Counted from the first letter of the stretch, positions 2,957-46,303 are shown. The stretch: 64,000 nt of DNA from Alphaproteobacteria bacterium (GCA_965243135.1 OZ251539.1:1120001-1184000), one strand, 5' to 3'. Made by a program: numbers and translations. The notes: generated by a model not told the origin, from the letters alone.

Positions 2957-4486
2957 TCAGGCGGGCTCGCAATCGAACCCGACGACGTTGCGCTCCTCGC
3001 GGCTGAACTCCACCCCGATCAGGTGGACCGAACGCCCGAGATGGCGGTACTTGTCCGCGTAGCCCTTCTCCCGCAGCTGCGCGATCGCGGTCCCCTCCCG
3101 CCCGCGCTCCACCACCTTGAACTCGAACAGGTAGACGCGCCCGCCGGCGCGAACCGCCATGTCGGCGCGCCCCCGGCTGCCGCTGTCCTCCGCGACCGGC
3201 TCGAGGCCCTCCATCAGGAAGCAGCTGTGGATGACGCTCGCGTAGTGGGCCTCGTACTTCGCGACGGGGCTGGTCGCGTACCACTGGTGCGGGATGGCGG
3301 CGAAAATGCCGCGGAACAGGGTTTCGAGACGCTTGAAGTCGTTCGCCTCCAGCAATTCGCCCAGCCGCAGGTTCTCCGTCTCCTCGCGGGCCTCGACCGG
3401 GAGCAGTTCTCCCAGCAGGGCCTCGCCCAGGCTCCGGCGCACCTCGAGGTTCGGGTAGCCCAGCCTGTAGCGCCCGTCCTCCTCGCCCGCGATGGTGAGG
3501 TAGCCGGTCTGGAACAGAAGCGCCTCGATCGAGACATTGTCCACGTCGACGGACGAAAGCAGGCTCTCGCTGCCGGTCATGCCGTCCAGGCGGGGAGTGG
3601 GCAGGTCGCGGCGCGCCAGCGTCTCGACCAGGAAGGTCGGCGTGCCGCTCTGGAACCAGTACGGGCGGAACTCGCGTCGCCGAAACAGCAGCAGCAGACC
3701 GAACGGGTTGTAGACCTTCTCCGGCCCGCGCCAGTTGTAGCCGTTGTACCAGCGCCGGATCTCGTCCCGGTCCAGGCCCTCGAGTTCCGGGGCGAAGACC
3801 GCGTCCAGTTCGTCGTCCGTGCAGCCGCAGATGTCCGAGAACTCCGGCTCCAGCGTGACGTCGATCAGGTTATTCAAGCCCGAGAACAGGCCCGATAACT
3901 TGCTCACCCCCGTCAGGAAAACGAAACGGAGCTGCTCGTCGCAGTCCTTGATCACTCCGTACAGGTCGCGCAGGAAGCCGCGGTTGGCCAGCGCCAGCTC
4001 CCGGTCGCCGAGCGCGTCCAGGATCGGCTTGTCGTATTCGTCCACCAGCACGGCCGTCCGCTGCCCGGTGCGCTCGTGCAGCGTCCTTATCAGGCGCCGA
4101 AAACGGACCGCCGCCTCGCCAGCTCCTGGTTCGAGGCCGGCCAGCCGCTCCGTCTCCTCCAGCTGGTCCTCCACATCTTTCCGAACGCGGTCCGGGACGA
4201 CGAAATTGCGCCCGCCGAAGCTGAGCCGCACGACCGGGTGGCGCGCCGACCAGTCCCACCTGCCGTGCACGGCGAGATCCCGGAACAACTCCTCGCTTCC
4301 CTCGAACAGCTCCTGCAGCGTGTCCACCAGCAGGGTCTTGCCGAACCGGCGCGGACGCGACAGGAAGTAGTACTTGCCGCCCTCGACGAGGCGGCGCGCA
4401 TGCTCCGTCTTGTCGACGTAGTAGCAGTCCATCTCGCGGATCTCCCGGAGGGAGGAAAAGCCGATCGGAAGCATGCGTCTCGCCAT
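2957..4486 (-). CDS. AAA-ATPase-like + PD-(D/E)XK nuclease (PDDEXK_9) protein, intact copy A
   Basis: LPIG..F..IR, YYVDKT, SRPRRFGKT (Walker A), VDEYDKP (Walker B), WYNGY, YNPF, GRADM...YLFEFK nuclease motif; 509 aa from ATG 4486. Confidence 0.9.
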   Translation of the reverse strand: MARRMLPIGFSSLREIREMDCYYVDKTEHARRLVEGGKYYFLSRPRRFGKTLLVDTLQELFEGSEELFRDLAVHGRWDWSARHPVVRLSFGGRNFVVPDRVRKDVEDQLEETERLAGLEPGAGEAAVRFRRLIRTLHERTGQRTAVLVDEYDKPILDALGDRELALANRGFLRDLYGVIKDCDEQLRFVFLTGVSKLSGLFSGLNNLIDVTLEPEFSDICGCTDDELDAVFAPELEGLDRDEIRRWYNGYNWRGPEKVYNPFGLLLLFRRREFRPYWFQSGTPTFLVETLARRDLPTPRLDGMTGSESLLSSVDVDNVSIEALLFQTGYLTIAGEEDGRYRLGYPNLEVRRSLGEALLGELLPVEAREETENLRLGELLEANDFKRLETLFRGIFAAIPHQWYATSPVAKYEAHYASVIHSCFLMEGLEPVAEDSGSRGRADMAVRAGGRVYLFEFKVVERGREGTAIAQLREKGYADKYRHLGRSVHLIGVEFSREERNVVGFDCEPA

Positions 4487-4492
4487 CTTGGC

Positions 4493-4521
4493 AGGATAGA
4501 CCGCCATGCCGGAGCCATCAA
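4493..4521 (-). promoter_or_regulatory. Sigma70-type promoter, leaderless architecture
   Basis: TTGATG-N17-TATCCT-N6-ATG; same spacing in the paralog at 29678. Confidence 0.65.
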
Positions 4522-5071: not shown

Positions 5072-5145
5072 TGGAGCGGGCGAAGGGAATCGAACCCTCG
5101 TCGTAAGCTTGGGAAGCTTCTGCTCTGCCATTGAGCTACGCCCGC
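5072..5145 (-). tRNA. tRNA-Gly(CCC), copy 1
   Basis: GCGGGCGTAGCTCAATGG...CTTCCCAAG...GGTTCGATTCCC...CTCCA; 74 nt cloverleaf with encoded CCA. Confidence 0.95.
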
Positions 5146-5248: not shown

Positions 5249-5322
5249 TGGAGCGGGCGAAGGGAATCGAACCCATGTCGTAAGCTTGGGAAGCTTCTGC
5301 TCTGCCATTGAGCTACGCCCGC
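5249..5322 (-). tRNA. tRNA-Gly(CCC), copy 2 (T-stem mismatch)
   Basis: Identical to copy 1 except GA->AT at the start of the T-stem. Confidence 0.9.
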
Positions 5323-27094: not shown

Positions 27095-28291
27095 TTGTTA
27101 GACTTGGACCGGGTTCCGGCGACCCCGGGGGGTGCCCGACCCGACGACTCCCCGGCGGTGGACGCGCGCGGCGCGGCCAGGTTCCATGACCTGGACGTAC
27201 TCCGGGCCTCCGCCATGTTCCTGGGCGTATTGCTGCACGGCACCTTCTTTCTCCTGCCCTCCAAATGCTGGCCGGTGCAGCTCGAATATGCGGACACGAC
27301 CGCTATCGTCGCCAATCCGTACGGCTACGCCCTCCTGTTCATTCATGGGTTCCGGATGCCGGTGTTCTTCATGCTCAGCGGCTTTTTCACCGCAATGTTG
27401 TGGCAGCGACGGGGGCTGCAAGCGTTGGGCCGGCACCGCCTCAAGCGGATCGGTCTGCCGCTGCTGGCGTGCATGCTCACCATTATCCCGATCACCCATT
27501 GGATCATCACCTTCGCCGCCGGCCATACCGGAAAGGAACTCGCCGGCTGGTGCACTGCGGTGACCTGGCCGCCGCTGGCCTGGATGGGCGGTTTCTACCA
27601 CCTCTGGTTCCTCTGGTACTTGCTGCTGATGGCGGCGGCGTTCATCGTCATCGCCGGGCTGGGGGCGCGGTTCCGCCATGCCCTGTGGTGGCTGGCCGTT
27701 CCGCTGACCATGGCGCCCCAGTATTTCATGCGGAGCATCTTCGGCGCCGACAATCCCACCGAGGTGCTGCCCGAACCCTTCGTGTTCGCGTATTACGGCA
27801 CCTTCTTCCTGTTCGGGGTCTTCTTCTACCAGCGCAACATACAGGTGCGCCGGTGGTGGACCGTCGCGGTGCTGCCGGCGCTGTTGGTTTTCCCGCCGGG
27901 CGTGGCCTTCTCTTACCCCGAAGCCTTCGGTCTGGATGCGGCGGCAGTATGGGTGAACGGCGCGTCGGCGGCGTTGCAGGCCGCTTTTTCCTGGCTGATG
28001 TGCTTCGGTCTGATGGGGCTGTTCCGTTGGGTCGCGTCGCAGGAGCGGTTCTGGATGCGTTACATGTCCGATGCCTCCTATTGGATCTATCTGGGGCATG
28101 TCCCCCTGATCATCGCCGGGCAGTTGCTGATCGCGGACTGGCCCATCAGCGCGCACCTGAAGTATCTGATCGTCTGCCTGAGCGTCCCCGCCTTCCTGCT
28201 GCTGGTTTACCAGTACGGGGTCCGTTATACCGTCATCGGAACCATGCTGAACGGACCGCGCCGCCGCGTCCGCCCGGAAGCGCCGTGTTGA
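27095..28291 (+). CDS. Membrane acyltransferase, Acyl_transf_3/MdoC-like; start uncertain (27095-27158)
   Basis: RFHDLD.LRA.AM.LGVLLH, HGFRMPVFFMLSGFF, HLWFLWYL, ASYWIYL.H; many TM helices. Confidence 0.88.
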   Translation: MLDLDRVPATPGGARPDDSPAVDARGAARFHDLDVLRASAMFLGVLLHGTFFLLPSKCWPVQLEYADTTAIVANPYGYALLFIHGFRMPVFFMLSGFFTAMLWQRRGLQALGRHRLKRIGLPLLACMLTIIPITHWIITFAAGHTGKELAGWCTAVTWPPLAWMGGFYHLWFLWYLLLMAAAFIVIAGLGARFRHALWWLAVPLTMAPQYFMRSIFGADNPTEVLPEPFVFAYYGTFFLFGVFFYQRNIQVRRWWTVAVLPALLVFPPGVAFSYPEAFGLDAAAVWVNGASAALQAAFSWLMCFGLMGLFRWVASQERFWMRYMSDASYWIYLGHVPLIIAGQLLIADWPISAHLKYLIVCLSVPAFLLLVYQYGVRYTVIGTMLNGPRRRVRPEAPC

Positions 28292-29331
28292 CGTCGGCGG
28301 CCTCGTCCATTCCGCCGGTGTTCGTGCTGGGCTCCGGACGGTGCGGTTCGACAATGGTGTCGGACATCCTCAACCGCCATCCGCGCGTTCTCAGCCTGTC
28401 AGAGTTCTTCAGCAGCGTCGGGATGGGATCCTTCCGCTTCCGCCGGGTCACCGGCCGCCGGATGTGGGATTCGTACAGTCGGCAGTCCGCCCGCAGCCGG
28501 CTGCTCCTGCGGGGAGAATCCGACGAGGTGCTCTATCCGTTGGACGACCCGGGCGCCCGCTTCAGCCGACACGACGTGCCGCCCATCATGGGGGTCGCGC
28601 TGCCGCATCTCGGCGACAGGGTGGGGACGTTGTTCGATGAGCTGGAGCCGGTGGTCCTTAGCCAGCCCAAGCAGCCGCCCGCCGCCCACTTCCGGTACCT
28701 GTTCGAGTGGCTGTGCCGACGCCTGGACCGGAGCGTGTGGGTTGAACGCTCCGGGGGGTCGCTGATGTTCGGCTACCGGCTGGTGGACGAGTTTCCCGAC
28801 GCGCGGGTTATCCACGTCTACCGCGACGGGCGGGATACGGCCATCTCCATGAGCCGCCATTACGTCTTCCGCACCGTGGTGGCCACCATCGTGGCGCTCC
28901 GGCGCTGGGGCGTCGACGTCAACGCCTCGATGGTCCGGGGCAGGCGCTGGGACAACGCCGGCCTGTGGCTGGAGGCGCTGACCAGCAAGTTCTTCAACCC
29001 CGACCGGCTGCCTTACGACCGGCTCACCCTGTCGGACTTCGCGGCGTTCTGGAGCGCGATGATCGAGCGGGCCCACCGGATGTTCGGCGATTTCCCGTCC
29101 GAGCGCCTGCTGAACGTCCGCTTCGAAGAGGTGCTGGCCGATCCCGAAGCCCAGACGAGACGCATCATCCGGTTCATTTCCCCCGGCCTGGAAGACGAGG
29201 CATGGGTGCGCGAAGCGGCCCGGATCCCGCGGCCCGCGCGGTCCCGCTTCAAGCAACTGGGGGCCGAAGAACTGGCGCTGCTGACCAAGGGATGCCGCCC
29301 CGGGCTGGAACGTCTCGGCTACCCGCTCTGA
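28288..29331 (+). CDS. Sulfotransferase
   Basis: 5'-PSB VLGSGRCGST, 3'-PB IHVYRDGRDTAIS, VRFEE; TTG start overlapping the upstream TGA. Confidence 0.88.
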   Translation: MTSAASSIPPVFVLGSGRCGSTMVSDILNRHPRVLSLSEFFSSVGMGSFRFRRVTGRRMWDSYSRQSARSRLLLRGESDEVLYPLDDPGARFSRHDVPPIMGVALPHLGDRVGTLFDELEPVVLSQPKQPPAAHFRYLFEWLCRRLDRSVWVERSGGSLMFGYRLVDEFPDARVIHVYRDGRDTAISMSRHYVFRTVVATIVALRRWGVDVNASMVRGRRWDNAGLWLEALTSKFFNPDRLPYDRLTLSDFAAFWSAMIERAHRMFGDFPSERLLNVRFEEVLADPEAQTRRIIRFISPGLEDEAWVREAARIPRPARSRFKQLGAEELALLTKGCRPGLERLGYPL

Positions 29332-29340
29332 CGAACGCGC

Positions 29341-29510
29341 CCCTTCAAGTTTGACGTGCGATATTCCGGATGTGGTGGCTGACCGGCCGTTTGCATGTTG
29401 CGGAAAGGTCAGGCGATGCGATTAATCTCTGTGAGTTCAAAAACGGAGATTGGGCCAACGCCTACCATCACCTGACCCGCGACGAACGTTGCCAGATTGA
29501 CATTCCGCTA
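29341..29510 (+). mobile_element. IS30-family remnant: left end plus transposase N-terminal fragment
   Basis: CCCTTCAAGTTTGACGTGCG end; GGAG RBS then ANAYHHLTRDERCQI, resembling the IS30 HTH N-terminus; no start codon and no continuation. Confidence 0.6.
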
Positions 29511-29677
29511 TCAACTCCGTGTCGAACGCGCTCGCCTCCTGCGAGCGGGCAAGATTTTCGCGGAGCGACAGGTTCGCTCGCCCTCGCGCTTTTCCCCGCC
29601 GCCCGACCGTACCGCCGCGGAAACTGCCGGCTGCTTGTCGCGCGGCGCGGCGCGGGACAGCCGCCACCGCCGACTTC

Positions 29678-29706
29678 TTGACGGCTCCGGCGCGGCGGCC
29701 TACTCT
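29678..29706 (+). promoter_or_regulatory. Sigma70-type promoter, leaderless architecture
   Basis: TTGACG-N17-TACTCT-N6-ATG(29713); no SD sequence. Confidence 0.7.
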
Positions 29707-29712
29707 CGTCGA

Positions 29713-30703
29713 ATGGCGAAACGCATGCTTCCGATCGGCTTTTCCTCCCTCCGGGAGATCCGGAGGATGGACTGCTACTACGTCGACAAGACGGACCATG
29801 TCCGCCGCCTCGTCGAGAGGGGCAAGTACTATTTCCTGTCGCGTCCGCGCCGGTTCGGCAAGACCCTTCTGGTGGACACGCTGCAGAAGCTGTTCGAGGG
29901 AAGCGAGGAGCTGTTCCGGGACCTCGCCGTGCACGGCAAGTGGGACTGGTCGGCGCGCCACCCGGTCGTGCGGCTCAGCTTCGGCAGGGGCCATTTCGTC
30001 GTCCCGGACGGGGTTCGGATAACCGTGGAAAGGCAGCTGGCGGCGGCGGAGAGGCGCGCCGGCCTCGAACCGGGTCCCGTCGAGGCCTCGAACCGTTTCG
30101 GGGAATTGATCGAGGCCCTGCACGAGCGTACCGGACAGCAGGCGGTCGTGCTGGTGGACGAGTACGACAAGCCGATCCTGGACGCGCTCGGCGACCGGGA
30201 ACTGGCGCGGGCCAACCGGGACTTCCTGCGCAGCCTGTACGGGGCGATCAAGGACTGCGACGAGCAGCTCCGTTTCGTTTTCCTGACGGGGGTGAGCAAG
30301 TTATCGGGCCTGTTCTCGGGCCTGAACAACCTGATCGACATCACGTTGGAGCCGGAGTTCTCGGACATTTGCGGGTACACGGACGCGGAACTGGACGCGG
30401 TCTTCGCCCCGGAACTCGAGGGCCTGGACCGGGACGAGGTCCGGTGCTGGTACAACGGCTACAACTGGCGCGGGCCGGAGAGGGTCTACAACCCGTTCGG
30501 CCTCCTGCTGCTGTTTCGGCGGCGCGAGTTCCGCCCGTACTGGTTCCAGAGCGGCACGCCGACCTTCCTGGTCGAGACGCTGGCGCGCCGCAACCTGCCC
30601 ACTCCCCGCCTGGATGGCATGATCGGCAGCGAGAGCCTGCTCTCGACCTTCGACGTGGACAGGATCTCGGTCGAGGCGCTTCTGTTCCAGACCGGCTACC
30701 TCA
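29713..30703 (+). CDS. AAA-ATPase-like/PD-(D/E)XK protein copy B, exon 1
   Basis: Near-identical to copy A up to FQTGYL; homology stops at the GTGCG intron start. Confidence 0.92.
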
Positions 30704-31571
<868 letters not shown>

Positions 31572-32104
31572 CCATCGCGGGCGAGAAGGACGGGCGCTAC
31601 AGGCTGGGCTATCCGAACCTCGAGGTGCGCCGGAGCCTGGGCGAGGCTCTGCTGGGAGAATTGCTCCCGGCCGAGGCCCGCGAGGAGACGGAGCGTTTGC
31701 AGCTGAGCGAACTGCTGGAGGCGAACGACTTCGAGCGCCTCGAGACCCTGTTCCGCGGCGTCTTCGCCGCCATCCCGCACCAGTGGTACGCGACCAGCCC
31801 CGTCGCGAAGTACGAGGCCCACTACGCGAGCGTCATCCACAGCTGCTTCCTGATGGAGGGCCTCGAGCCGGTGGCCGAGGACAGCGGCAGCCGGGGGCGC
31901 GCCGACATGGCGATCCGCGTCGGCGGGCGCGTCTACCTGTTCGAGTTCAAGGTGGTGGAGCGCGGACGGGAGGGGACCGCGATCGCGCAGCTGCGGGAGA
32001 AGGGCTACGCGGACAAGTACCGCCATCTCGGTCGTTCGGTCCACCTGATCGGGGTGGAGTTCAGCCGCGAGGAGCGCAACGTCGTCGGATGCGAGACCGC
32101 CTGA
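31572..32104 (+). CDS. AAA-ATPase-like/PD-(D/E)XK protein copy B, exon 2 (nuclease domain)
   Basis: Splicing gives A|CC ATC GCG = TIAGEKDGRYRLGYPNLEVR, in frame; spliced product 507 aa. Confidence 0.92.
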
Positions 32105-32109
32105 ACGGC

Positions 32110-32485
32110 TTCCCGTCGGACACGGCCGCCTCCGCGAAAGAACGCCGCTCGCGACGCGGGTTCGGGCTGCGCTCCGTCGAAGGTGGCAGCGCTCGTTGCT
32201 CGCGCGGCGCTCGACCGGTAAGCGCCTGAAAAGTCGCGGGAAGGCGTCCGCCCGGAGGGCCGGCGTAAGGCGCTGCGGCTGCGAAGAGCGCCGCGCAGCG
32301 GCCTTCGGGGAGGGACGCTTGACTCGCCTGCCTTGCGTGCTGACCGGCTGTGTTGCGCTTCGGAATTGACAGGGTGGCTTCCGGGCCGGAGCCCACACCC
32401 GACCAAGCGTCGTGCGCGGGTGCGGTCCTCGAACCCGGCTGCGGCTTCCACCCCGACGGAACGTGGTGCAAATGCCAGGACAGGG
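32110..32485 (-). mobile_element. Putative IS110-family remnant: structured non-coding left end plus decayed transposase C-terminal fragment
   Basis: Nested stems 32372-32453; ends GCACGCAAGGCAGG as I recall from alphaproteobacterial IS110 left ends; followed by frameshifted ALFAAAAP...FQALTGR...EQRAL. Confidence 0.45.
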
Positions 32486-32588
32486 TCGGCTAATGTTCGG
32501 CTTGCCCCGTGCGCCCGTCTGACGGCGCGCATCGACAGGCAGTTGCGCAGGTTGCGCTGCCTTTGACCGGCGGCTAACCCACCACGGT

Positions 32589-32614
32589 CTGCCCACACGA
32601 CGGAGATCGCCGAC
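32589..32614 (+). repeat. 26-bp dispersed motif, copy 3 (right border of era-recO island)
   Basis: CTGCCCACACGACGGAGATCGCCGAC; 21/26 identical to 25552-25577. Confidence 0.45.
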
Positions 32615-32619
32615 CGTCG

Positions 32620-32642
32620 CGTTGCGCTTCAAAGTTGACGGG
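32620..32642 (+). mobile_element. IS30-like right inverted repeat
   Basis: GTTGCGCTTCAAAGTTGACGGG reads VALQS*, a typical IS30 transposase end; 16/23 match to the reverse complement of 29341-29363. Confidence 0.5.
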
Positions 32643-32825
32643 AACTCGTCTTTCGGAAGCGGAATAGTACGCCCCCTATCAACTCGGATCGGTTGGCCGG
32701 TGAGTCAAGGTGTCGCCACGGGCGCAAAGGGCGGCCGCCAAGTGTATTCTGGAGCCGGAGACGCGGAAAACGGAGTGCGCCGAGGCGCGACGGCACCTAA
32801 TGGAAAACGCAGGTTCCTGAGACCT

Positions 32826-33569
32826 ATGGACTGGAAGGATGAAGGCTTCGTGCTGTCGGCCCGCAAGCACGGAGAAAACTCCGCCATCGTCATGCTGCTC
32901 ACCCGGGACAACGGACGCCACGCGGGACTCGTGCGCGGCGGCGGGAGCCGGCGCGCGCGGGGCGTGTACCAGACGGGGAATCTGGTCAGCGCGCGATGGC
33001 GGGCGCGCCTTGACGAACATCTCGGCGCCTATTCCTGCGAATTGCTGTACCCCTACGCGGCGCAACTGTTGGGCGAACCGCTGCAACTCCTGGCTCTGGC
33101 TTCGGCGGCGGCGACGCTTGACCAGTTGTTGCCCGAACGCGCGCCGCATCCGGAGGCGTTTGACGCGTTCCGCGCGGTGCTGGAAGCGTTTCGGGCCGAG
33201 GACGGCTGGCTGGAGGACTTCGTGCGATGGGAACTGTCGCTGCTGTCCGCGCTCGGTTACGGCCTCGATCTGTCGCGATGCGCCGCCACGGGCGTCGTCG
33301 ACGGCTTGACGTATGTTTCTCCCCGCACCGGCCGCGCCGTTTCCGCCGCGGCCGGCGAGCCTTGGCGCGGCAGGCTCCTGAAACTTCCTTCCTTTCTGAC
33401 GCAGGATGCCCGCGGCGGAGCGACTCCGGAAATCTCGGACGGGCTGGCGTTGACCGGACACTTTCTCGCCCGTTGCGCCAAGGAAACCGCGGCGCGGCCG
33501 CTGCCCGGGGCGCGTGCGCGACTAATTGACAGGCTGCGCAAAACCTCTACAATATCTGGTATTATCTAA
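32826..33569 (+). CDS. recO: DNA repair protein RecO
   Basis: MDWKDEG.VL..RKHGE, GRHAGLVRGG, LGYGLDLSRCA.TG, YVSPRTGRAVS. Confidence 0.95.
   Translation: MDWKDEGFVLSARKHGENSAIVMLLTRDNGRHAGLVRGGGSRRARGVYQTGNLVSARWRARLDEHLGAYSCELLYPYAAQLLGEPLQLLALASAAATLDQLLPERAPHPEAFDAFRAVLEAFRAEDGWLEDFVRWELSLLSALGYGLDLSRCAATGVVDGLTYVSPRTGRAVSAAAGEPWRGRLLKLPSFLTQDARGGATPEISDGLALTGHFLARCAKETAARPLPGARARLIDRLRKTSTISGII
33526..33553 (+). promoter_or_regulatory. Sigma70 promoter for parC inside the recO 3' end
   Basis: TTGACA-N16-TACAAT, ending 32 nt before the parC ATG. Confidence 0.7.
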
Positions 33570-33584
33570 CCTCGGAGAGATCCG

Positions 33585-35819
33585 ATGACGACCGATTTGA
33601 TCGCCTCGCCGCGGATCGAGAACGTCCCGTTCGCGGATGCGCTGGGCGAACGCTATCTGGCCTACGCGCTTTCGACCATCACGTCGCGGTCGCTTCCCGA
33701 CGTGCGCGACGGCCTCAAACCCGTTCAGAGGCGCCTGCTTTTCGCCATGCGGCAACTCCGGCTCGACCCCGCTTCGGGCTTCAAGAAATGCGCGCGCGTC
33801 GTGGGCGACGTGATCGGAAAGTACCATCCTCACGGCGACGTCGCGGTCTACGACGCCCTCGTGCGCCTGGCGCAGGATTTCTCGGTTCGCTATCCGCTGA
33901 TCGACGGGCAGGGCAACTTCGGCAACGTCGACGGCGACAACGCCGCGGCCATGCGCTACACGGAAGCGCGGCTGACGGATTACGCGATCGCCGTGCTCGA
34001 CGGGATCGACGAGGACGCCGTCGACTTCCGCGAAAATTACGACGGTTCGGAGGACGAACCCGCGTTGCTGCCGGCGAGCGTGCCGAACCTTCTGTGCAAC
34101 GGGGCCATGGGCATCGCCGTCGGAATGGCGACCAGCATACCCCCGCACAACCTGGAGGAGGTGTGCAACGCGTTGCTGCACCTCCTTAAATTTCCGAACG
34201 CCACTATCGCGAAACTCGTCGAACTCGTCCCCGGCCCCGACTTTCCCACCGGCGGGTTGCTGGTCGAGGAGCGCGGCGCGGTCGCCGAAGCCTACGCCGC
34301 TGGACGCGGTTCGTTCCGGCATCGCGCCCGCTGGCGCAAGGAGGAGCTGCCTCGCGGCCAGTACCAGATCGTGGTCACCGAGATTCCCTATCAGGTGTCC
34401 AAGGGACGGCTCGTCGAAAAAATCGCCGATCAGCTCAACGCGAAGAAATTGTCGCTGCTGGGCGACCTGCGCGACGAGAGCGCGGAGGATACGCGGTTGA
34501 TTCTCGAACCGCGCAGCCGTTCCGTGGACGCGGAAATGCTGATGGAGCAGATGTTCCGCCTGACCGACCTCGAGGCCCGCGTTTCTCTGAACATGAACGT
34601 GCTGGATTCGCGAATGGTGCCGCGGGTCATGAGCCTCCGCGAGGTGTTGCGCGCTTTTCTCGATCACCGCGAAGAAGTGCTCGTAAGGCGGGCGCGGCAT
34701 CGCCTCGCGAAAATCGAACATCGCCTCGAGGTGCTCGACGGTTATCTTGTCGCCTATCTCAATCTCGACGAGGTGATCCGCATCATTCGCGAGGAGGACG
34801 AACCCAAATCCGTGATGATCGGCAAATGGGGGCTTAGCGACGTTCAGGCCGAGGCGATTCTCAATATGCGCCTGCGCGCGTTGCGCCGCCTGGAAGAGAT
34901 CGCGATCGAAGAGGAACACCGGAAACTGTCGGCCGAACGGCGCGACCTTCAGGAGATGTTGGCCGACGCCGGAAAACGGAAGGCGGCGATCGCCGCCGAG
35001 ATCGGCGAAATTCGCAAGCGCTTCGGCAAGAAGACGGCGCTGGGCGCGCGGCGCACCGGCATCGAGGACGCGCCGCCGCCCGTCGACGTGCCGCCGCACG
35101 CCTTGATCGAGCGGGAGCCGATCACCGTCATTTGTTCCGAGAAGGGATGGATTCGGGCGGCGAGGGGGCATCTGGCGGATCCGGGAGGCGTCAAATACAA
35201 GGAGGGCGACCGGGAGCGCTTCGTCCTCCCGGCGGAGACGACCGACAGGATCCTGATTTTCGCGACCAACGGCCGCTTCTACACGCTCGGCGCGGACAGG
35301 CTGCCGGGCGCGCGCGGCCACGGCGAGCCCGTGCGCCTGATGGTGGATCTGCCCAACGACCAGGACGTCGTGGCGTTGTTCGTTCACCGGCCCGGCGAAA
35401 GGCTGGTCGTCGCTTCGGCGGACGGACGGGGATTCGTCGTATCCGAAGACGAGGTGGTCGCACAGACCAAGAACGGCAAGCAGGTGCTTAATCTCGGGAA
35501 GCAGGGGGAGGCGGCGGCGTGCGCTCCCGTGCGAGGGGACGCCGTCGCGGTGATCGGCGAAAATCGCAAGATTTTGGCGTTTCCGCTGTCGGAACTGCCG
35601 GAGATGAGCCGCGGCCGCGGCGTGAAGATGCAGAGCTATCGGGATGGCGGGCTGTCGGACGTCACGACCTTCGAACTGAAGAAGGGCCTGTCGTGGAAGA
35701 CGGGGGCGGGAATGCGCACCGAAAGCGACCTCGAAGGCTATGTGGGCCGGCGCGGCCAGGCCGGCCGCGTCGCCATGCGGGGGTTTCCGAGAAGCAACCG
35801 CTTCGGGAACTACGCGTAG
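33585..35819 (+). CDS. parC: DNA topoisomerase IV subunit A
   Basis: [28 protein letters not shown]; 744 aa, no GyrA box. Confidence 0.95.
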
Positions 35820-45014: not shown

Positions 45015-46303
45015 TCCCCCCCCTTCGGGTCGCTGTCGCCGGCCTCGGCACGGTCGGCGCGGCGGTCGTCGACATTCTGCGCTCGAAGCGGGATCTGATC
45101 GCGGCGCGTTGCGGCAGGCTTGTCGACGTGACCGCCGTGTCGGCTCGCGACCGCCGTCGCCGCCGGGAAATCGACCTGTCCGGCTGCGTCTGGTTCGACG
45201 ACGCCGCCGCGATGGCCGCGCAGGCGGATGCCGACGTCGTCGTGGAGCTGATCGGCGGCGAGGACGGCGTCGCGAAAGCGGTTTGCGAAAGCGCTCTCGC
45301 CGCGGGCCGCGACCTGGTGACGGCGAACAAGGCGCTGCTCGCCCGTCACGGCGCGGCGCTCGCCCGCGCGGCCGAAGCGGCGGGAGCGGGCCTCGGCTAC
45401 GAAGCTTCGGTCGCGGGCGGCATTCCGGCGATCAAGGCGCTGCGGGAAGGCTTCGCGGGCAATCGCGTGTCGAGGATACACGGCATTCTCAACGGCACCT
45501 GCAATTACATTCTGACGGCGATGCGGGAGACCGGCCGGAACTTCCCCGAAATCCTCGCGGACGCCCAGCGCCTCGGCTACGCCGAGGCGGATCCGGGATT
45601 CGACATCGACGGCATCGACGCGGCGCACAAGCTCGCGCTTCTCGCCGCCGCGGCGTTCGGCCGCGAAGTGGACTTCCGCGGCGTCCATGTCGAGGGGATA
45701 CGCCGGGTCACCGTCGGCGATATCGAGTTCGCGGGGGAACTGGGCTACCGCGTCAAACTGCTCGGGATAGCCGAGGAAACGGAGGAGGGCGTCGAACAGA
45801 GGGTCCATCCCTGCATGGTGCCGGTCGACGCCCCGCTGGCCCATGTCGAGGGCGTCTTCAACGCCGTCGTCGTCGAGGGGGATTCCGTGGGCAGGGGCAT
45901 GCTGGAGGGACGCGGCGCGGGGGCCGGGCCGACCGCGTCCGCCGTCGTCTCCGACATCGTCGACTTCGCGAGAGGTGTTCGCCTGCCGGCGTTCTCGCTT
46001 CCGGCGTCGCGGTTGCGGCCGGCCCGCGCGGTGCCCATGGGCCAGCGGACGGGCCCCTGCTACGTGCGGCTGTCGGTCGTCGACCGGCCCGGCGTGATCG
46101 CCGACGTCTCGGCGGCGCTTCGCGACGAGCGGGTGTCCGTGGAATCCTTCATTCAGAGAGCGCGCTCGCCGGAGGAGTCGGTGCCGGTGGTGCTCACCCT
46201 TCACGAGGCGCGCGAGGACTCCGTGCGGCGCGCGCTCGACCGAATCGGGGCCTTGGACACGGTTTTGGAACGACCCTGTATGATCAGGATAGAAAATCTT
46301 TGA
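45011..46303 (+). CDS. hom: Homoserine dehydrogenase
   Basis: GLGTVG, VTANK, EASVAGGIP, GILNGT.NYIL, C-terminal ACT; TTG start approximate. Confidence 0.94.
   Translation: MIPPLRVAVAGLGTVGAAVVDILRSKRDLIAARCGRLVDVTAVSARDRRRRREIDLSGCVWFDDAAAMAAQADADVVVELIGGEDGVAKAVCESALAAGRDLVTANKALLARHGAALARAAEAAGAGLGYEASVAGGIPAIKALREGFAGNRVSRIHGILNGTCNYILTAMRETGRNFPEILADAQRLGYAEADPGFDIDGIDAAHKLALLAAAAFGREVDFRGVHVEGIRRVTVGDIEFAGELGYRVKLLGIAEETEEGVEQRVHPCMVPVDAPLAHVEGVFNAVVVEGDSVGRGMLEGRGAGAGPTASAVVSDIVDFARGVRLPAFSLPASRLRPARAVPMGQRTGPCYVRLSVVDRPGVIADVSAALRDERVSVESFIQRARSPEESVPVVLTLHEAREDSVRRALDRIGALDTVLERPCMIRIENL

What the first reader, a model, noticed from the sequence alone, without database searches (positions are those of the whole stretch)
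3480..3512. Unoccupied identical homing site in the paralogous gene
Seen: copy A carries AGACCGGCTACCTCA|CCATCGCGGGCGAG on the minus strand (junction between 3496 and 3495), identical to the flanks of the intron in copy B, including IBS1, candidate IBS2 and IBS3. Inference: the intron targets the conserved LFQTGYLTI motif of a multicopy gene family, which gives it many landing sites. The empty site suggests lost mobility, strand or replication-direction bias, or selection to keep one intron-free copy.
Basis: partly seen in the sequence, partly recalled or inferred. Interest (0 to 1): 0.7.

Follow-up and report, generated by a model that had tools for sequence, protein, structure and literature searches.

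The report
Empty target site of stranded intron
This is one of about fifty intact but unoccupied landing sites, inside a hugely expanded nuclease-ATPase gene family, for a small self-splicing intron that has probably stopped moving because every copy of its helper-enzyme gene in the genome is broken.

Summary
Copy A (window 2957-4507, minus strand) carries the uninterrupted 29-nt sequence that flanks an 868-nt ORF-less group II intron in copy B (30704-31571). The identity is not special, because both genes belong to a family of about 139 DUF1703-type paralogs (PF09820 + PF08011) in this 6.1-Mb genome. 58 paralogs have a perfect -14..-1 match, and 7 of those are or were occupied.

EBS1 (window 30922-30927) pairs 6 of 6 with IBS1 and covaries in related introns at other sites. 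EBS2 and EBS3 could not be established.

The introns are 98.7-100% identical while their host exons are only 89-92% identical. Flanks differ from position +7 onward. So the intron spread by retrohoming in trans after the paralogs had diverged.

All five remnants of the intron-encoded protein (IEP) gene in the genome are broken, so the family is probably immobile now. All 7 occupied sites are co-directional with replication by GC skew; copy A is head-on (p about 0.03, dependent on the replichore assignment). Selection for one intron-free copy, and assembly collapse, are rejected.

This is a new member of a known kind (RmInt1-like, T. elongatus-like).

In passing: repeated DNA here carries an unexplained AT-anchored 5-6-nt deletion signature, which is also what broke the IEP genes.

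The parts
2957..4507 (-). Copy A: an intact 516-aa gene of the DUF1703 type (AAA-ATPase_like + PDDEXK_9), with no intron.
   Evidence: ORF and translation. Pfam PF09820 E=2e-55 and PF08011 E=6.7e-16.
3482..3510 (-). Unoccupied homing site, 29 nt. The would-be insertion point lies between 3496 and 3495, in phase 1 of the Thr codon (CTC A|CC).
3496..3501 (-). IBS1 (ACCTCA, positions -6..-1) of the empty site.
   Evidence: Complementary to EBS1 UGAGGU of the copy B intron. Cognate pairing is 6 of 6 in 9 intron copies, with covariation.
3505..3509 (-). Candidate IBS2 (GACCG, positions -14..-10). Not established.
   Evidence: 5 bp with CGGUC at 30897-30901, but cognate pairings are no better than non-cognate ones.
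29710..30703 (+). Copy B exon 1, counted from the ATG aligned with copy A's start.
   Evidence: Translation. tblastn residues 2-338, 84.9% identity.
30704..31571 (+). ORF-less group II intron, 868 nt, GUGCG...CUAC.
   Evidence: There is no RT ORF.
30922..30927 (+). EBS1 (UGAGGU).
   Evidence: Read. Covaries with IBS1 across copies.
30897..30901 (+). Candidate EBS2 (CGGUC), in a patch that varies among intron copies.
   Evidence: Inconclusive.
31430..31462 (+). Domain V: 33 nt, with the AGC triad and a GNRA-like loop. A long domain VI follows, running to 31571.
   Evidence: Lies inside the RF00029 match at 31428-31571. The helix itself was read by eye.
31572..32104 (+). Copy B exon 2, including the stop codon. 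Joining it to exon 1 restores a full-length frame.
   Evidence: the frame stays open across the junction, with 177 codons to the stop. tblastn residues 330-516, 90.4% identity.

Best explanation
Copy A holds a genuine, intact, never-filled (or at least currently empty) target of an ORF-less group II intron.

The intron recognises the sense strand of the LFQTGYL|T codons of DUF1703-type genes through EBS1-IBS1 pairing, and probably further contacts. It has no reverse transcriptase of its own. It was mobilised in trans by the endonuclease-less RT-maturase of sister introns, and it inserted independently into a handful of paralogs after those paralogs had diverged.

Occupancy is the exception: 7 of 58 perfect sites. 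Every IEP gene of the family in this genome is now broken by 5-7-nt deletions, an IS insertion or truncation. The intron is therefore most likely frozen, and the remaining sites, copy A among them, simply stay empty.

Copy A is also in the orientation that such introns disfavour, because its target strand is the leading-strand template by GC skew.

Shown here: the site identity, the intron anatomy, EBS1-IBS1 covariation, the copy census, intron identity higher than exon identity, and the broken IEP genes. Inferred: past mobilisation in trans, present immobility, and the role of orientation.
For: - Census. About 139 paralog sites: 58 perfect at -14..-1, 70 with CTGA, which gives a mismatch at IBS1 position -2, and 11 other. 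Of the 148 hits, 9 are an unrelated repeat, as the tree shows.
- Occupancy. 7 of the 58 perfect sites are occupied and 0 of the 70 CTGA sites.
- Independent insertion. Five ORF-less copies are 98.7-100% identical to each other, ignoring gaps, while their host exons are 89.3-92.4% identical. The nearest relative of each occupied gene is an empty copy at 93.7-96.8%. The 3' flanks already differ at +7/+8 (GCG, GTC, GCC), so there was no co-conversion.
- EBS1-IBS1. Pairing is 6 of 6 in 9 copies. Retargeted relatives pair GGAAAC with GUUUCC/GUUUUC/GUUUCU and AGGAGC with GCUCCU, and UGAGAU with AUCUCA.
- No working IEP. The 4 GIIM hits and 6 RVT_1 hits all fall in four frameshifted copies or one truncated fragment. 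The YADD motif is removed by a 7-nt deletion in 3 of the 4 ORF-carrying copies. A 485-aa transposase-like ORF interrupts the one ORF-carrying copy that sits in a paralog.
- An intact 476-aa IEP in a same-genus genome has RVT_1 + GIIM and no endonuclease domain.
- Orientation. 7 of 7 occupied sites against 29 of 51 empty sites are co-directional with replication (Fisher one-sided p=0.028). By clusters it is 7 of 7 against 11 of 21 (p=0.027).
- Precedent. Endonuclease-less RmInt1 prefers the lagging-strand template, and the review describes colonisation and extinction phases (PMC5894124, passages read). ORF-less introns are mobilised in trans in T. elongatus (PMC2882425, passages read).
Against: - Immobility is inferred from sequence only. 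No mobility or splicing data exist, and no RNA run was listed.
- The IEP frameshifts rest on one assembly that I could not check against reads.
- 29 perfect sites in the favoured orientation are also empty, so orientation cannot be the main cause.
- The orientation result disappears (4 of 7 against 17 of 51, p=0.21) if the origin is put at dnaA (45,987) with the terminus opposite, instead of at the skew extremes.
- EBS2 and EBS3 were not identified, so 'perfect site' is defined only by identity to occupied sites.
- Precise intron loss from copy A cannot be excluded.
Confidence: 0.7

Rival explanations
1. Replication-direction bias is the main reason. The intron can only enter the lagging-strand template, and copy A presents its target on the leading-strand template, so it was never a usable site.
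For: All 7 occupied perfect sites are co-directional by GC skew, and copy A is head-on. The IEP type lacks an endonuclease domain. RmInt1 shows such a bias (PMC5894124, passages).
Against: - 29 of 51 empty perfect sites are in the favoured orientation.
- p is only about 0.03 with non-independent sites.
- The result depends on replichore assignment. dnaA lies about 1 Mb from the skew minimum, and the effect vanishes with an alternative origin and terminus.
- RmInt1 also uses the other strand at a lower rate (reference title).
Confidence: 0.15
2. The intron spread among paralogs at the DNA level, by gene duplication or gene conversion, and not by retrohoming. On this reading copy A is just a paralog that never recombined with an occupied one.
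For: Chimeric intron copies exist, with an unrelated 5' flank and a paralog 3' flank at genome positions 1924980 and 1914060.
Against: - Occupied genes are scattered in the paralog tree, and each is closest to an empty copy.
- Exon sequence differs from +7 onward next to nearly identical introns, so there is no co-conversion tract.
- Retargeted relatives at unrelated sites show compensating EBS1 changes, which is the hallmark of RNA-guided insertion.
Confidence: 0.07
3. Selection keeps copy A, or at least one copy, free of the intron because the intron harms gene function.
For: Without a maturase the intron probably splices poorly (inference). Only 2 of 6 occupied genes would give a full-length frame after splicing.
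Against: 51 perfect sites and about 130 paralogs in all are intron-free. There is no scarcity for selection to act on, and nothing distinguishes copy A.
Confidence: 0.03
4. Assembly artefact: copy A is a collapsed or mis-joined version of copy B.
For: None was found. The family is highly repetitive, which in principle invites mis-assembly.
Against: Copies A and B differ at 110 of 1400 aligned exon bases. They lie on opposite strands 27 kb apart with unique sequence between them. The genome is one contig. Contigs of independent runs cover the unique flanks of copy B without differences (runs X1 and X2).
Confidence: 0.01

Closest known systems
RmInt1 of Sinorhizobium meliloti in the multicopy insertion sequence ISRm2011-2 (IIB3/class D, endonuclease-less IEP). 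PMC5894124, passages read.
   Same: - A bacterial group II intron whose natural target lies in a multicopy genetic element.
- The IEP has RT and maturase domains but no endonuclease domain.
- Insertion is biased to the lagging-strand template.
- Relatives are retargeted through changes in EBS.
- The review describes a colonisation phase followed by an extinction phase with degenerate copies.
   Different: - The target here is a protein-coding family of about 139 paralogs, not an IS.
- The copies inside the family are ORF-less, except one with a broken IEP.
- No working IEP is left in the genome.
- Membership of class D was not tested. The best plasmid-borne IEP relatives are 55% identical or less and carry no class label.
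ORF-less TeI3 introns of Thermosynechococcus elongatus, mobilised in trans by TeI4 IEPs. PMC2882425, passages read.
   Same: - ORF-less derivatives outnumber ORF-carrying copies.
[quoted passage not shown]
- One ORF-carrying copy is interrupted by an IS.
- The family has diverged into lineages with different targets.
   Different: - In T. elongatus six IEPs are potentially active. Here 0 of 5 are.
- T. elongatus introns mostly avoid genes. Here one lineage homes into a coding motif.
- The domain IV remnant here cannot be aligned with the ORFs of the sister copies over about 215 nt, so it is not a simple shared deletion.
Extinction dynamics of group II introns in Enterobacteriales. PMC3522654, only the search listing and the start of the abstract were seen.
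   Same: The general model is invasion, proliferation, then decay to extinction.
   Different: I did not compare in detail, because I did not read the paper's text.
DUF1703 (AAA-ATPase_like + PDDEXK_9) expansion in Cardinium hertigii cCpun. PMC6387759, passages read.
   Same: The host gene architecture is the same. The expansion is lineage-specific and the paralogs recombine.
   Different: There are 25 paralogs averaging 39% amino-acid identity there, against about 139 here in two young clades (60-97% identity). The passages I read do not mention an intron.

Membership tests
Bacterial group II intron (ribozyme) | 5' GUGYG and 3' AY boundaries | tested here: met
   GTGCG at 30704 and ...CTAC ending at 31571. 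The same ends occur in all 8 full-length genomic hits.
Bacterial group II intron (ribozyme) | Domain V/VI and domain I-IV covariance-model matches above Rfam gathering scores | tested here: met
   RF00029 51.4 bits against 40, and RF02003 77.3 bits against 49.
Bacterial group II intron (ribozyme) | EBS1-IBS1 pairing with the 5' exon | tested here: met
   6 of 6 pairs in 9 copies. Three other EBS1 types each match their own flank.
Bacterial group II intron (ribozyme) | EBS2-IBS2 pairing | tested here: inconclusive
   CGGUC pairs with GACCG (5 bp) in a variable patch, but cognate duplexes (3-5 bp) are no longer than non-cognate ones (3-9 bp).
Bacterial group II intron (ribozyme) | EBS3-IBS3 (or delta-delta') pairing with the first 3'-exon base | tested here: inconclusive
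   No alignment column covaries with +1 C/T across copies (inspection).
Bacterial group II intron (ribozyme) | Splicing in vivo | not testable with these tools
   No RNA run was listed.
Autonomous mobile group II intron (retroelement) | Intact RT-maturase ORF in domain IV | tested here: not met
   The copy B intron has no RT ORF. All IEP remnants in the genome are frameshifted, interrupted or truncated.
Endonuclease-less, replication-fork-dependent introns (RmInt1-like) | IEP without a DNA endonuclease domain | tested here: met
   The intact relative (G001, 476 aa) has RVT_1 + GIIM only. The G000 remnants end right after the maturase domain.
Endonuclease-less, replication-fork-dependent introns (RmInt1-like) | Insertion bias to the lagging-strand template | tested here: inconclusive
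   7 of 7 occupied against 29 of 51 empty (p=0.028) with skew-based replichores. The effect is lost with a dnaA-based origin.
Endonuclease-less, replication-fork-dependent introns (RmInt1-like) | Phylogenetic class D / IIB3 structure | not tested
   No class-labelled reference was available. The idea that RF02003 corresponds to class D is only a guess from memory.
DUF1703 host gene family | N-terminal PF09820 plus C-terminal PF08011 | tested here: met

The most novel reading that the evidence does not exclude
The intron was frozen not by ordinary decay but by a lineage-specific micro-deletion process. This process removes 5-6 nt anchored on an AT dinucleotide from repeated or mobile DNA, for example through a staggered cut followed by trimming and rejoining. 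It riddled the IEP genes, the dead intron copies (including the EBS1 hexamer in two of them), the old IS copies and many DUF1703 paralogs, while 8 identical young IS copies are untouched. If it is a dedicated or repeat-biased process, it would be a bacterial counterpart of repeat-directed genome defence.
Probability: 0.2. Interest if true: 0.8.

Novelty: new member of a known kind. Interest (0 to 1): 0.42.

Why it matters
This is a clean natural snapshot of the end of a group II intron invasion. It shows an ORF-less passenger intron that colonised a coding motif of a very large paralog family, dozens of perfect sites still open, and no driver enzyme left.

It offers a ready-made test bed of 58 identical targets in both orientations, for asking how replication direction, a single IBS1 mismatch (CTC against CTG) and trans-acting IEPs shape intron spread.

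The exact 25-nt target also exists in DUF1703 genes of many phyla, so the intron could be retargeting-free in many hosts.

The AT-anchored 5-6-nt deletion signature, if real, would be a new mutational or defence phenomenon. It needs read-level confirmation.

Tried and rejected
- Sequencing runs. No RNA holder was listed for the copy B stretch.
- Read laying. I laid Logan contigs of 4 runs on window 28000-34000 at 97% likeness. A joint skipping exactly 30704-31571 appears in X1, X2 and X4, but with only 21-22 letters on the shorter side. It comes from the many empty paralogs and says nothing about copy B or copy A. Contigs of about 100 nt at 97% likeness also cannot show 6-nt deletions.
- EBS2. 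The variable patch after CGAAAC gave no better pairing with its own flank than with other flanks. The regular expression failed and was corrected.
- EBS3. No covarying column was found.
- Folding 30885-30975 alone gave an uninformative structure (z=0.11).
- Rfam RF00029 in the whole genome listed only the window's copy, because 150 of 366 candidates were scored. The census therefore relied on BLAST.
- Intron class. tblastn of the intact relative IEP against plasmids gave identities of 55% or less and no class labels.
- Occupied-junction pattern. There were 0 hits in 40 relatives, in JGI metagenome contigs and in genome contigs. The window's own records may be left out of these collections.
- Deletion hot-spot allele pattern in metagenome contigs. 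There were 0 hits for either the intact or the deleted form.
- Mechanism ideas for the deletions. NucS_C gave only weak partial hits (33.8 and 23.2 bits). Ku was not found. MutS is present. That EndoMS/NucS leaves 5-nt overhangs is recalled from memory, not from a call. No matching 5-6-nt insertions or duplications were found.
- Literature search for such a deletion signature returned nothing relevant (one word set only).
- Earlier notes of this scan hold nothing on the intron or on the deletions.
- One search failed on a search term with forbidden characters, and I did not repeat it.
- I did not consult any paper supplements.

Full report
**1. The observation**

The minus strand of the window reads ...TTCCAGACCGGCTACCTCA|CCATCGCGGGCGAG... 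at 3482-3514. The 15-mer on the exon-1 side occurs only twice in the window at up to 2 mismatches, at 3496-3510 (-) and 30689-30703 (+), against 0.04 expected. The 14-mer on the exon-2 side occurs at 3482-3495 (-) and 31572-31585 (+). On its own that second match is not beyond chance.

In copy B the halves are separated by 868 nt (30704-31571) that begin GTGCG and end CTAC. This insert matches Rfam group-II-D1D4-4 (77.3 bits, gathering score 49) and the domain V/VI model Intron_gpII (51.4 bits, gathering score 40). It has no reverse-transcriptase ORF. The junction falls after the first base of a Thr codon in LFQTGYL|TI. The description is therefore correct.

**2. What the genes are and how many there are**

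Copy A (2957-4507, minus strand) is an intact 516-aa protein with PF09820 (AAA-ATPase_like) and PF08011 (PDDEXK_9).

The window lies at 1,120,001-1,184,000 of a single 6,103,318-bp contig. tblastn and fuzzy matching found the family in enormous numbers. 148 places match the exon-1 side of the site at up to 4 mismatches and continue with either exon 2 or the intron. 9 of these belong to an unrelated repeat, as the tree shows, which leaves about 139 paralog sites:
- 58 have a perfect -14..-1.
- 70 read CTG A instead of CTC A, which is a mismatch at IBS1 position -2.
- 11 differ otherwise.

The paralogs form two clades that largely follow CTC against CTG. Copies A and B are 92.1% identical over 1400 exon bases. 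The uninterrupted 29-mer occurs 9 times in the genome and -14..+6 occurs 50 times. The identity of the site in A and B is therefore plain paralogy.

**3. The intron family**

The 868-nt element has 8 full-length hits in the genome (84-100% identity), several copies with a 1.2-2.7-kb insert in domain IV, and many fragments. The flanks show the following.
- Six copies sit at exactly this codon of different paralogs, with 5' ends at genome positions 1150704+, 4120047-, 1934958-, 3619307-, 2890374- and 2668831-.
- A seventh paralog, at 960838, keeps only the first 7 intron bases and lacks 8 exon bases. This is a deletion scar.
- Two further copies, at 1924980 and 1914060, have a paralog exon 2 on the 3' side only.
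- Related copies lie in unrelated sequence.

The D1 alignment shows a hairpin-loop hexamer, UGAGGU at window 30922-30927, that is complementary to ACCUCA (-6..-1). In the relatives this hexamer changes together with the flank:
- GGAAAC with GUUUCC, GUUUUC or GUUUCU
- AGGAGC with GCUCCU
- UGAGAU with AUCUCA

Cognate pairing is 6 of 6 in all 9 copies scored. This establishes EBS1-IBS1.

A candidate EBS2 (CGGUC at 30897-30901, pairing with GACCG at -14..-10) lies in a patch that varies among copies, but cognate pairings are no better than non-cognate ones. I found no EBS3 column. Domain V can be read at 31430-31462.

**4. How the intron got into the paralogs**

The five ORF-less copies in paralogs are 98.7-100% identical to one another, ignoring gaps. 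Three are identical apart from indels. Their host exons, in contrast, are 89.3-92.4% identical, and the nearest relative of each occupied gene is an empty gene at 93.7-96.8%. Exon sequence next to the intron already differs at +7/+8 among occupied copies.

The intron is therefore younger than the divergence of its hosts, and it arrived without co-conversion of flanks. This fits RNA-guided retrohoming. It does not fit duplication or gene conversion.

Because the intron has no ORF, an IEP must have acted in trans, as shown experimentally for the ORF-less TeI3 introns of T. elongatus (PMC2882425, passages).

After conceptual splicing, only copy B and the gene at 3619307 give a full-length frame. 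The other four hosts are frameshifted elsewhere.

**5. Why copy A is empty**

(a) Empty is the norm: 51 of 58 perfect sites are empty.

(b) No driver is left.
- A six-frame search finds 4 GIIM matches and 6 RVT_1 matches in the whole genome.
- These lie in four ORF-carrying intron copies, whose ORFs are cut into 3 to 7 frames, and in one truncated fragment next to an IS-like element.
- The alignment shows different 5-7-nt (and one 11-nt) deletions in each copy. The YADD motif is removed by a 7-nt deletion in 3 of the 4, and one copy carries a 1658-nt insert with a 485-aa transposase-like ORF.
- A same-genus genome (G001) has a related intron with an intact 476-aa IEP containing RVT_1 + GIIM and no endonuclease domain.

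(c) Orientation.
- Cumulative GC skew has its minimum at 5,155,566 and its maximum at 1,652,647.
- On that basis all 7 occupied perfect sites are co-directional with replication, so the target strand is the lagging-strand template. This compares with 29 of 51 empty ones (p=0.028). By clusters of neighbouring sites it is 7 of 7 against 11 of 21 (p=0.027).
- Copy A is head-on and copy B is co-directional. This matches the bias known for endonuclease-less RmInt1 (PMC5894124, passages).
- However, dnaA lies at 45,987, far from the skew minimum. With an origin at dnaA and the terminus opposite, the association vanishes. I treat it as suggestive.

(d) Selection for an intron-free copy is unnecessary with about 130 intron-free paralogs.

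(e) Collapse is excluded, as set out in section 1 and in the rival explanations.

**6. Elsewhere**

Among 40 relatives, the empty-site pattern (up to 3 mismatches) is present in 4 genomes, with 1 to 16 copies each, against 131 in this genome. The occupied-junction pattern is present in none. The occupied junction also has 0 exact hits in the metagenome and species-representative collections.

The exact 25-nt empty target occurs in 54 stretches from many phyla, including Acidobacteriota, Binatia, Alpha- and Gammaproteobacteria and Thermodesulfobacteriota. As far as these collections show, the intron-in-DUF1703 association is confined to this genome, while its target is widely conserved.

**7. 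An unexplained by-product**

The breaks in the IEP genes belong to a wider pattern.
- In the 139 paralogs the deletion-length spectrum is 1 nt: 10, 2: 31, 3: 5, 4: 5, 5: 67, 6: 127, 7: 10.
- The deletions recur at about 25 hot spots, in both clades and on different flanking haplotypes.
- A third, unrelated 2.3-kb IS-like family shows the same. Eight 100%-identical copies carry none. Copies that are 90-96% identical carry 9-27 each, all 5-7 nt apart from a few of 9-12, and the sharing is nested in step with their relatedness.
- Pairwise self-BLAST shows the 5-6-nt bump in 848 HSPs outside the DUF1703 family as well.
- The deleted oligomers can be written as starting or ending with AT in 25 of 56, 30 of 39 and 11 of 18 distinct events. 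The null means are 3.7, 3.0 and 1.7.
- There is no counterpart among insertions.
- 43 DUF1703 copies from other genomes show an ordinary spectrum, mostly 3-nt indels, except one MAG locus.
- A same-genus genome has a 7-nt deletion at one of the same hot spots in 4 of 4 copies.

Clean identical copies together with nested sharing argue against a polishing artefact, but I could not check reads. I found no mechanism. NucS-like, Ku and MutS searches are reported under Tried and rejected. Two intron copies (2890374, 1924980) have lost exactly the EBS1 hexamer in this way.

**8. Verdict**

The finding is real and its core reading is right, but the empty site itself is ordinary. It is the default state in a frozen intron family. 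The system is a new member of a known kind (compare RmInt1 in ISRm2011-2, and the T. elongatus ORF-less introns). Its unusual features are a coding target in a family of about 139 copies and the complete loss of IEP function. The deletion signature is the most surprising thing seen and deserves its own follow-up.

Noticed in passing
Genome-wide. In the window it affects copy B's relatives. Examples: G000:C1:2889578-2890374, G000:C1:1355648-1357802, G000:C1:2899000-2900600.: Repeated DNA (DUF1703 paralogs, intron and IEP copies, a 2.3-kb IS-like family and other repeats) carries many deletions of almost exclusively 5-6 nt. They are anchored on an AT dinucleotide, recur at hot spots and have no matching insertions. 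Identical young copies have none. The mechanism is unknown and no read-level confirmation was possible.
   Followed up: partly
Whole genome G000. In the window: 2957-4507 and 29710-32104.: About 139 DUF1703-type paralogs, roughly 215 kb or 3.5% of the genome by my arithmetic. Many lie in tandem arrays (for example 1.257-1.291 Mb and 1.906-1.952 Mb) and they fall into two clades. Same-genus genomes show 0-16 matches to the site pattern.
   Followed up: partly
G000:C1:960819-960860: A degenerate paralog keeps only the first 7 bases of the intron (GTGCGCC) at the homing site and lacks the first 8 exon-2 bases. This is a scar of imprecise intron deletion.
   Followed up: partly
G000:C1:1924188-1924980 and 1914060-1914731: Two intron copies, about 10 kb apart, have the same paralog exon 2 on the 3' side. 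One has an unrelated 5' flank and the other is truncated at the 5' end. This looks like recombination between intron copies at different sites, followed by a segmental duplication.
   Followed up: no
Loci L049-L102 (genome contigs): The exact 25-nt target TTCCAGACCGGCTACCTCACCATCG occurs in 54 stretches of genomes from many phyla. Nucleotide-level conservation or horizontal spread of this gene family is therefore remarkable.
   Followed up: partly
G002 loci L035, L038, L041, L047: All 4 DUF1703 copies of a same-genus genome have a 7-nt deletion at the codons for His90-Pro91. This is the same hot spot that carries 5- or 7-nt deletions in 19 of 139 copies here.
   Followed up: partly
G000:C1:2665261-2668831: The only ORF-carrying intron inside a paralog is interrupted by a 1658-nt insert that encodes a 485-aa transposase-like ORF.
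   Followed up: no
window 5075-5145 and 5252-5322 (-): Two nearly identical 71-nt tRNA genes lie 107 nt apart, just beyond the start of copy A.
   Followed up: no
G000:C1:45987-46469 against the skew minimum at 5,155,566: dnaA lies about 1 Mb from the cumulative GC-skew minimum, and the skew-defined replichores are unequal (about 2.6 and 3.5 Mb). This suggests large rearrangements or an origin away from dnaA.
   Followed up: no
window 32306: A contig of a sponge-metagenome run (X6, about 2% diverged in the unique flank) has 5 extra bases (GGGGA) here relative to this genome.
   Followed up: no
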